From Eledone cirrhosa (lineage: Eukaryota), in assembly GCA_964016885.1 (NCBI GenBank), contig OZ024741.1, positions 347,572,001-347,636,000 on the forward strand: a stretch of 64,000 nucleotides of DNA, in the 5' to 3' direction. The translations under genes and the position numbers were made by a program. The notes under the pieces are model-generated. The model saw nothing but the letters and a program-made list of their open reading frames with translations. It had not been told where the DNA came from and did not search any database. Below, in pieces: positions 17,806-19,156 of the stretch (the first letter of the stretch is position 1; every line of letters begins with the position of its first letter).

Positions 17806-17901
17806 TGTATATGTTTGTCTTTATTTGTTAATTTTTCATTCGCACCGTTTCCTTTCGCTATATGTCTCTCCACCACTCCCCTACACACCTTTTGAACTCT
17901 T

Positions 17902-17933
17902 ACCTGAAGAAGGGCTTATGCCCGAAACGTCGT
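17902..17933 (+). ncRNA. Minimal hammerhead motif (family E)
   Basis: ac-CTGAAGA-a-gggc ttat gccc-GAAA-cg-TC-gt. Stem III is ACGT with a GUC site; stem I is only 2 bp. Confidence 0.65.
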
Positions 17934-18286
17934 CCTCCACCTACCCCCCACTCTCCTGAGCGTGAATCTAATAAACATTTGTCGTACTGCCTCTCTGTTC
18001 TGTCCCTGTTCAATTTTTTATTATACAAAACACACGCTCACACGGCCTCCATCCTTGGAACTCACTTAACAACCGGCTCAACCCCGATCTAATCCGCCGT
18101 GACCTGTCTCCGAACTTTACACACCTTCCCACACTTTGTCTTTCCTTCTACGCATTACCTCTGTTTGATTTTGTTACCGTACCCCTTTTTATTATATTTT
18201 TGTCTTTATTTGTTAATTTTTCATTCGCACCGTTTCCTTTCGCTATATGTCTCTCCACCACTCCCCTACACACCTTTTGAACTCTT

Positions 18287-18318
18287 ACCTGAAGAAGGGC
18301 TTATGCCCGAAACGTCGT
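18287..18318 (+). ncRNA. Minimal hammerhead motif (family E, second copy)
   Basis: Identical core 385 nt downstream. Confidence 0.65.
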
Positions 18319-19156
18319 CCTCCACCTACCCCCCACTCTCCTGAGCGTGAATCTAATAAACATTTGTCGTACTGCCTCTCTGTTCTGTCCCTGTTAAATT
18401 TGTTATTATATATATATATATATATATACACACATATATATATATATATATATATATATATATATATATATATACACACACACACATATATATATATATG
18501 TATATATATATATATATTTGTGTATCTGCAGATAACATATTCCAGGGTTAAAATTCATATTTTTTTTATCGGGAATACACGGAGCAATAATTGTGTAATT
18601 TGTAGGCAAAGAAATTTTAGTGGGGTCGCTTTGAATGACAGCTTCTAATTGATCGATAATAATGGATGTTATTTCAAACATTTGAACTGACATGTGTCCA
18701 CTTTCAGACAACGATCTCTGAATTGAAACCACAGACATACATTATAATTTAGATCATCCAGTGTTCCACTACTGATCCACACATTGTTCCACTTCTGGAT
18801 TTACATTTTTAACCTTTGAAATTTATCGTTTGATGAATCTTTTAAGGTATGAACGCCTCCAGCAAATCTCTCCATTTTGAAGAATGTTTTTGTTGATGTG
18901 ATGGTATATTTCTTTACTGAATATTAAGCTTAATGGTTTGTTAGAGTTAAAATGGCAGCATACTTTTCACCTGGACTATACACATTTTGTCTGGCAGAAA
19001 TAGCTTATGTATTGACGAGATTAGCTTAATGCACGCTTCAAACAAATAGTTTAACGTTCGTGATATTTCATGAATGTTAAAGTAACATCTAGTTGTTTTA
19101 TCCGACAAACATTGGAAATAATAATATGAGGAAAATTATTGAACTCCATTTATCAA

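What the first reader, a model, noticed from the sequence alone, without database searches (positions are those of the whole stretch)
17812..18408. Retrozyme-like 385-nt unit flanked by two minimal hammerheads
Seen: identical HHR cores 385 nt apart in a non-coding partial tandem embedded in TA repeats, and a diverged solo copy at about 44010-44260 that keeps the core unchanged while its flanks vary. Known: metazoan non-LTR retrozymes are tandem units of a few hundred nt that yield small circular RNAs. Inference: dimeric cleavage could release a 385-nt linear or circular RNA.
Basis: partly seen in the sequence, partly recalled or inferred. Interest (0 to 1): 0.72.

Follow-up and report, generated by a model that had tools for sequence, protein, structure and literature searches.

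The report
Penelope-made hammerhead mini-repeat, private junction
This 600-base insert is the front end of a common Penelope-type jumping gene joined to a second copy of its end repeat at a joint found nowhere else in the genome, likely made when the copying enzyme went one and a half times over a short RNA, and its sister copies carry DNA traces suggesting that the tiny ribozyme likely does cut in living cells.

Summary
In detail: identical minimal hammerhead cores 385 nt apart, in TA runs. It is not a retrozyme family. Both halves are 99-100% identical to a 4.7-kb Penelope-like element (PLE; RT plus GIY-YIG-type domain): end repeat, 5' leader, end repeat again. The junction occurs once in the 3.0-Gb genome. 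Such minis are common (36 of 95 sampled leader-bearing loci) and nearly each has its own junction. Eleven repeat their junction inside one insertion, one as an 87-kb, ~210-unit array with no dispersed daughters. Best reading: the PLE reverse transcriptase starts at the end repeat, runs to the 5' end of a short front-end RNA and restarts at its 3' end (jump or ligated circle). The ribozyme has a 2-bp stem I, yet 62 copies begin exactly at the predicted cut against 8 at a matched control, and one joins U6 snRNA there, which points to cleavage in vivo. A 385-nt RNA from this locus is possible but untested, and predicted to be poorly folded. The scan noted private-junction minis, cut-site pile-ups and U6 joints before in other genomes.

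The parts
17814..18410 (+). Whole mini-insertion, about 1.55 units of 385 nt (5' end at 17808 or 17814; both ends blend into TA)
17814..18025 (+). Upstream end-repeat (pLTR) piece of the PLE; begins 2 or 8 nt short of the point where the downstream copy resumes
   Evidence: 17814-18190 is 376/377 identical to L081
17904..17931 (+). Minimal type I hammerhead core 1; predicted cut after 17931; stem I = 17902-17903 with 17932-17933 (or the partner copy)
   Evidence: numbering after PMC4209133
17957..18040 (+). Predicted 8-bp stem (17957-17964 with 18033-18040) enclosing the fixed 3' end of all insertions; candidate RT start signal
   Evidence: fold; conserved in most of 55 copies but without compensatory changes; role inferred from PMC11167929
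18026..18190 (+). 5' leader of the PLE (sequence that follows the upstream pLTR and precedes the ORF), cut off in a T run
18186..18191 (+). Private junction: leader position ~175 joined to 3' UTR position ~4496 of the 4705-nt unit, 3-nt T overlap; about 4.3 kb incl. the ORF absent
   Evidence: one match in the genome, itself
18191..18410 (+). Downstream pLTR with the canonical 3' terminus
   Evidence: 18191-18405 is 213/215 identical to L081
18289..18316 (+). Minimal hammerhead core 2; predicted cut after 18316
17932..18316 (+). Hypothetical 385-nt cut-to-cut monomer (untested; 12% G, weakly folded)
18407..18517 (.). TA run at the 3' flank (target; no target-site duplication can be read)
44007..44273 (-). 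5'-truncated 3' end of another subfamily of the same PLE, one hammerhead core at 44102-44129, no leader

Best explanation
The insert is a miniature, non-coding copy of an abundant 4.7-kb Penelope-like retrotransposon, made of end repeat, 5' leader and end repeat, and it was likely made once, at insertion, by the element's reverse transcriptase copying a short RNA from the element's front end one and a half times. Shown: identity to the coding element, the private junction, the fixed 3' end in TA, many sister minis with their own junctions. Inferred steps: (1) a short RNA begins in the 3' UTR/pLTR upstream of an uncut hammerhead and ends in the U-rich leader; (2) the PLE endonuclease nicks a TA run and RT starts internally at the pLTR end; (3) at the RNA's 5' end RT restarts at its 3' end, by a jump or because the RNA was ligated into a circle; (4) the second pass stops near the 5' end again. 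The two hammerheads are thus a product of the copying, not its cause. The same ribozyme likely cuts full-length PLE RNA in vivo.
For: Full-length parents with the same repeat at both ends, 4.3-4.8 kb apart, around an RT/GIY-YIG-type ORF. Window junction 1 of 1 in the genome. Of the first 100 of 379 leader-motif hits, 40 are minis (36 loci), 55 long, 5 other. 34 distinct junctions among 36 resolved; median overlap 1 nt. Eleven minis pass their junction again and repeat it; none of the 36 sampled mini loci runs on into normal 3' UTR, whereas 28 of 55 long copies extend upstream of the window's resume point (read by eye). Repeated junctions of L002, L035 and the C8 array are confined to their own locus (with 47), so no parent copy is seen. 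7 of 26 mini 5' ends stop within 15 nt of their own junction, 2.3 expected, p=0.005, window chosen after seeing the data. Cleavage in vivo: 62 vs 8, U6 joint, N7 the only common variant in the core.
Against: The window's own junction occurs once within the insert, so a plain deletion cannot be excluded for this locus; L048 shows that deletion-type copies exist in the family (upstream copy extends past its resume point). One junction (187 to 4541) is at two loci and 198 to 4478 at two, although the pairs are only 91% and 87% alike. Exact-match searches miss mutated junctions, and only 5 junctions were searched genome-wide. L267 is a mini that begins exactly at the cut, which needs a two-hammerhead RNA or a jump between molecules. 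The dimeric ribozyme fold costs about 20 kcal/mol in the ViennaRNA ensemble (no tertiary terms). Jump and circle cannot be told apart from DNA.
Confidence: 0.7

Rival explanations
1. Second-generation retrozyme: a deleted copy arose earlier, was transcribed, cut at both hammerheads, circularised and re-inserted here by PLE proteins; the parent is lost or absent from this assembly.
For: Family-wide signs of cleavage; junctions repeated within insertions are what rolling-circle copying predicts (model in PMC4209133, PMC7229834); L267 starts at the cut; two junction positions are each shared by two loci.
Against: No second locus with the window's junction; even the ~210-unit array has 199 of 199 junction hits inside itself; 34 of 36 junctions distinct; monomer not self-paired, z=+0.62; 5' ends gather just short of the junction, which a seamless circle does not predict.
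Confidence: 0.14
2. DNA-level or one-off RT deletion: a full partial-tandem PLE with a short upstream repeat lost 4.3 kb by a deletion with 3-nt T microhomology.
For: 3-nt overlap at the junction; single junction in this insert; L048 is of this type; overlaps of 3 nt or more in 7 of 31 junctions vs 12% expected.
Against: Cannot give the 11 minis with a repeated junction and no parent; predicts long upstream copies in about half of minis, seen in 0 of 36; does not explain why resume points cluster (22 pairs within 1 nt vs 10.6, p=0.003) and never lie 3' of the cut (0 of 36).
Confidence: 0.12
3. An established, self-standing retrozyme family of 385-nt units with the 44-kb copy as a diverged monomer.
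For: Unit size and two type I cores fit the retrozyme outline (PMC7229834).
Against: 99-100% identity to a coding PLE; unique junction; solo copy is a PLE 3' end of another subfamily; hammerhead is the PLE minimal type.
Confidence: 0.03

Closest known systems
Endonuclease-bearing Penelope-like elements, Neptune/Nematis type, with minimal hammerheads in the pLTR (PMC4209133 parts 1-2 of 4 read; PMC8557442 12 passages read)
   Same: Partial-tandem pLTRs, 5' truncation, RT followed by a CX2-5CxxC linker and a GIY-YIG-type domain, microsatellite targets, minimal hammerhead with an extra base after A9, G10.1-C11.1 and palindromic 15.2-16.2; a 2-bp helix I is described for D. virilis Penelope.
   Different: No ORF; a 385-nt unit with a private leader-to-UTR junction; no helix III insertion; stem II only 4 bp.
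Metazoan non-LTR retrozymes (PMC7229834 parts 2-4 of 6 read; Li, Clavereau, Pollet 2026, 10.64898/2026.07.22.740005 parts 1-3 of 5 read)
   Same: Non-coding unit of a few hundred nt with one type I hammerhead each; PLE pLTR origin as Li et al. propose; the C8 array looks like their multimers.
   Different: Minimal rather than canonical hammerhead; not a multi-locus family with one unit; monomer not predicted to be self-paired; no RNA evidence. Li et al. found cleavage in 1 of 9 dimers tested.
Poseidon element of Anolis, PAc (PMC11167929 parts 1-2 of 4 read)
   Same: AT-rich targets, fixed 3' ends explained by internal RT start in a stem-loop at the pLTR/downstream border, protein-assisted hammerhead.
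   Different: They found no RNA-seq reads ending at the cut and cleavage was not needed in vitro; here genomic copies pile up at the cut. In PAc the ORF starts inside the hammerhead; here a non-coding leader follows the pLTR.
U6/LINE-1 chimeras made by RtcB (PMC6789731, abstract and start of introduction read)
   Same: L261 joins the U6 3' U run to a retroelement RNA end; RtcB needs a 5'-OH, which a hammerhead cut supplies (established chemistry).
   Different: PLE partner and a joint at a ribozyme site; one case, and an RT jump could give the same DNA.

Membership tests
Non-LTR retrozyme | Non-coding tandem unit of ~150-450 nt with a type I hammerhead in each unit | tested here: inconclusive
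   Two cores 385 nt apart, no ORF across the insert, but only 1.55 units; TRF, the entry test of Li et al., does not report it. The sister C8 array meets it.
Non-LTR retrozyme | Canonical type I hammerhead (helix I about 6 bp, loop 1-loop 2 contacts) | tested here: not met
   Helix I is 2 bp, helix III only by dimer; no Rfam match. Li et al. also admit minimal motifs.
Non-LTR retrozyme | The same unit at many loci (mobile family) | tested here: not met
   Junction 1 of 1 in G000; 34 of 36 sister junctions distinct; array junction confined to the array.
Non-LTR retrozyme | Highly self-paired monomer RNA | tested here: not met
   -39.9 kcal/mol linear, z=+0.62, 68 of 100 shuffles fold as well; -34.4 as a circle.
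Non-LTR retrozyme | Expressed as linear and circular monomer RNA | not testable with these tools
   Needs RNA reads or blots.
Non-LTR retrozyme | Self-cleavage | tested here: inconclusive
   No assay. Indirect, for the family: 62 vs 8 starts, U6 joint, only N7 varies.
EN+ Penelope-like element (derivative of) | pLTRs in partial tandem around an RT + GIY-YIG ORF in the parent | tested here: met
   L081-L085, L040-L047, L049, L050; RVT_1 E=1e-4, below Pfam's cut-off; GIY-YIG-type motif read by eye, not called by Pfam on these proteins; 620 relatives at E<=1e-20, some with PF01541 (name GIY-YIG recalled).
EN+ Penelope-like element (derivative of) | Minimal hammerhead in the pLTR: extra base after A9, G10.1-C11.1, palindromic 15.2-16.2 | tested here: met
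   against PMC4209133
EN+ Penelope-like element (derivative of) | Fixed 3' end, variable 5' truncation, AT-rich or microsatellite target | tested here: met
Neptune (or Nematis) clade | CX2-5CxxC linker between RT and C-terminal EN; CCHH motif | tested here: met
   Linker at 472-480, two Cys inside the EN motif, two later His in P0001; feature from PMC8557442
Neptune (or Nematis) clade | Placement by RT phylogeny | not tested
   No reference set of named clades was at hand; Neptune vs Nematis is left open.

The most novel reading that the evidence does not exclude
This genome records the birth of retrozymes: a Penelope RT repeatedly turns short front-end RNAs of its own element into hammerhead-per-unit repeats, from 1.5 units (this locus) to an 87-kb satellite, while the 2-bp-stem ribozyme cuts in germ cells and its 5'-OH ends are ligated to other RNAs such as U6. 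Some of these repeats, perhaps this one, already shed small circular RNAs.
Probability: 0.3. Interest if true: 0.72.

Novelty: new variant of a known kind. Interest (0 to 1): 0.5.

Why it matters
Two questions are open in the papers read: how animal retrozymes arise from Penelope elements (Li et al. show relatedness, not mechanism) and whether the weak PLE hammerheads cut in vivo (low activity in PMC4209133; no cut-site reads in PMC11167929). This family offers DNA evidence on both: recurrent de novo minis with private, repeated junctions, a mini-derived megasatellite, and a sharp step of 5' ends at the cut with a U6 joint. The private junction makes a locus-specific RNA test simple. The locus itself is a by-product and probably has no host function.

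Tried and rejected
Rfam on the whole window gave only microsatellite-driven miRNA noise among the 150 of 206 rows shown and nothing on the element. The repeat finder was swamped by TA runs. Idea that the middle piece is the ORF's 3' end: rejected, it maps to the leader. Splicing as the source of junctions: rejected by eye, right flanks do not end in AG. Junctions at the ribozyme cut: none of 36 resumes 3' of position 4597; L132, not among them, resumes at about 4617, still 5' of the cut. Expression: no RNA holder listed. Contigs of runs X1, X3, X4, X5 were laid; no listed piece spans the junction, which proves nothing. L254 looked like a mini resuming at the cut but is a local duplication with TA flank. 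L262's upstream piece is only weakly tRNA-like (22.5 bits, below the 29 cut-off; no ARAGORN gene). RT stalling at the hairpin as the cause of the pile-up: not excluded, but stem II ends 8 nt upstream of the step and the step is one base sharp (7 starts at 0, 1 at -1). No target-site duplication can be read in TA. Literature searches listed no paper whose title or abstract start reports private-junction PLE minis, cut-site pile-ups or U6-Penelope joints; one search returned 0; subscription journals are mostly not covered. No supplements were seen; those of PMC4209133 and of Li et al. may list similar motifs or units. Rows dropped: of 43 candidate minis, 7 were left out (L106 segmental duplicate of L105; L113, L115, L153 unclear joints; L034, L132, L039 unresolved); the left end for L136 was taken.

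Full report
OBSERVATION. The core CUGAAGA-A-stem II-GAAACGUC lies at 17904-17931 and 18289-18316, 385 nt apart, and on the minus strand at 44102-44129. The repeat is 218 nt at 98.6%, so the insert holds about 1.55 units between TA-rich runs. The window lies in G000, 3.0 Gb, evidently an animal genome rich in TA repeats; the 31-mer core has 1953 exact matches there and the reversed control none. Rfam does not call the motif. By eye it fits the minimal hammerhead of Penelope-like elements (PLEs) in PMC4209133 (parts 1-2 of 4 read): an extra base after A9, G10.1-C11.1, palindromic ACGU in place of helix III, which needs a second copy.

THE PARENT. Some core hits come in pairs 4.3-4.8 kb apart. 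Fetching five such pairs showed full elements: repeat, leader, ORF, repeat. In L081 the unit is 4705 nt; positions below (u) count from the end of the upstream repeat, the core is u4594-4621 and the predicted cut follows u4621. The ORF is frameshifted in most copies seen. A 605-residue open stretch from L047 has RT motifs (RVT_1, E=1e-4, below Pfam's cut-off; 3 of 5 family proteins scanned hit), a CX2-5CxxC linker and a GIY-YIG-type motif read by eye; 620 relatives score E<=1e-20. The linker marks Neptune or Nematis PLEs (PMC8557442, passages). Window 17814-18190 is 376/377 identical to the parent's upstream repeat plus leader, and 18191-18405 is 213/215 identical to its 3' end. So the middle piece is the 5' leader, and the unit lacks about 4.3 kb. 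The 44-kb copy spans 44007-44273 and is 97.5% identical to the 3' end of another subfamily.

NOT A FAMILY. The window's junction, searched with a variable T run, matches once, itself. Among the first 100 of 379 hits of a leader motif (181 of the 379 lie in one array), 40 belong to minis at 36 loci, 55 to long copies and 5 to neither. Of 43 candidate minis examined, 36 gave clean junctions: 34 distinct, units about 210-645 nt, median overlap 1 nt (dropped rows listed under Tried and rejected). The two shared positions join loci only 91% and 87% alike, each closest to a different long copy. On C8 a 416-nt mini forms an 87.5-kb array of about 210 units with a truncated 5' end and a canonical 3' end, both in TA; all 199 hits of its junction lie inside it. 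Its variant pattern repeats every nine units at one end, so much of its length is likely later unequal exchange.

HOW MINIS ARE MADE (inferred). Each mini is periodic from a canonical 3' end back to a mostly TA-rich flank (41 loci; 6 are shorter than one unit and 1 gave no usable self-match). Eleven run past their junction a second time and repeat it (L002, L024, L026, L027, L028, L034, L035, L130, L132, L143, C8 array). None of the 36 sampled mini loci continues into normal 3' UTR, while 28 of 55 long copies extend upstream of the window's resume point (read by eye). For L002 and L035 the repeated junction exists only at that locus. The template therefore held the junction, or RT remade it at each pass, and no parent is seen. 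Resume points cluster (22 pairs within 1 nt, 10.6 expected, p=0.003) and none of 36 lies 3' of the cut, as if they were natural RNA 5' ends upstream of an uncut ribozyme; Penelope's promoter lies in the pLTR (PMC2377424, passages). Seven of 26 mini 5' ends, the window's included, stop within 15 nt of their own junction (2.3 expected, p=0.005, window chosen after seeing the data), which leans to a linear RNA copied end to end. Internal RT start at the pLTR border and AT-rich targets are shown for the Anolis element (PMC11167929, parts 1-2 of 4); a conserved 8-bp stem is predicted around the fixed 3' end here, without compensatory changes. Against: L048 is a true deletion-type copy, and this locus has its junction only once.

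DOES THE RIBOZYME WORK? Against: stem I is 2 bp, and forcing the dimer costs about 20 kcal/mol in the model; minimal hammerheads cut poorly in vitro (PMC4209133) and 8 of 9 dimers failed in Li et al. (parts 1-3 of 5). For: in 98 copies from loci not selected on the core, the only common variant in the 28-nt core is N7 (33%), the free position, while 12 flanking positions vary at 20% or more. 5' ends step up at the cut. Among 42 distinct TA-flanked starts in the first 100 of 508 rows, 36 lie at 0 to +5 and 6 at -7 to -1; 22 at 0 to +2 against 2 at -3 to -1 (positions read by eye). In 71 of the first 100 3'-motif hits examined, 15 start at 0 to +14 and 7 in the 28 nt upstream, 4 of those 7 being ambiguous C-run starts; of the other 29, 26 have an exact core, 1 is known to extend past it and 2 were not fetched. 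Genome-wide, 62 copies start exactly at the cut after an A/T run against 8 at a control 3 nt upstream that begins with the same letters (p=2e-11; near neighbours not merged). Of 20 of the 62 fetched, chosen mostly for odd flanks, one (L261) has a U6 snRNA (110 bits) whose terminal U run is joined exactly to the cut. U6 with a cyclic phosphate is ligated to 5'-OH RNA by RtcB in U6/LINE-1 chimeras (PMC6789731, abstract); an RT jump could give the same DNA, but either way the RNA ended at the cut. RT stalling remains a weaker rival.

THE 385-NT RNA. If this locus is transcribed and both sites cut, 17932-18316 would be released. That is untested. The monomer is 12% G and folds no better than shuffles (z=+0.62; -34.4 kcal/mol as a circle), unlike described retrozyme circles (PMC7229834, parts 2-4 of 6), and nothing shows that it has moved.

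VERDICT. It works like the starting stage of a retrozyme and is a PLE by-product; it fails the family, canonical-ribozyme and folding tests for membership. PLE origin of retrozymes is in print; the recurrent private-junction route and DNA traces of cleavage were not found in my searches. I reached the mini reading, saw the pile-up before and the U6 joint; those look-ups show the scan noted all three in other genomes, as unchecked notes. Interest 0.5.

Noticed in passing
G000:C8:31392669-31479905 (L176-L170, L031, L032): 87.5-kb satellite of about 210 hammerhead-bearing 416-nt units derived from one mini; best place to look for a small circular RNA.
   Followed up: yes
L261:825-930 (G000:C28:111514413): U6 snRNA copy (5' end lost in TA) joined at its 3' U run exactly to the predicted hammerhead cut of the window's subfamily.
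   Followed up: yes
L262:825-910; L248:806; L255:806; L249:806: Other pieces joined at the cut: a weakly tRNA-like stretch ending in T5, a PLE ORF fragment ending in T4A6, an A run, and a PLE piece ending in A6; possible jumps or ligations to RNA 3' ends.
   Followed up: partly
L267 (G000:C24:24533470): A mini (junction about 177 to 4509) whose 5' end is exactly at the cut; its junction is in no other fetched locus, not searched genome-wide.
   Followed up: partly
G000:C2:289061000-289101000 (L143, L144, L034, L145): At least four minis with different junctions within 40 kb; unexplained clustering.
   Followed up: partly
L180, L186, L196, L190, L241, L243: An older-looking subfamily in which the cut triplet or the 3' strand of stem I is lost in some copies.
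   Followed up: no
L099, L126, L151, L169, L107, L122, L114: Several long and mini copies begin within about 7 nt of the unit start, i.e. are almost exactly one unit long.
   Followed up: no
window 7293-9750 and 13055-14065: A second, unrelated-looking RT-plus-endonuclease element in pieces with a 946-nt inverted partial copy (97%); looks Penelope-like by eye, no Pfam hit for two pieces.
   Followed up: partly
window 16990-17190 and 17450-17640: A pair of inverted arms around a TA-rich spacer just upstream of the insert; similar short fold-back elements at about 44380-44440, 44905-45155 and 48455-48608.
   Followed up: no
run X4 (organism B), window 17904-17941: A contig of another organism holds the core region with 3 differences and its own flanks, so a related element exists there.
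   Followed up: no
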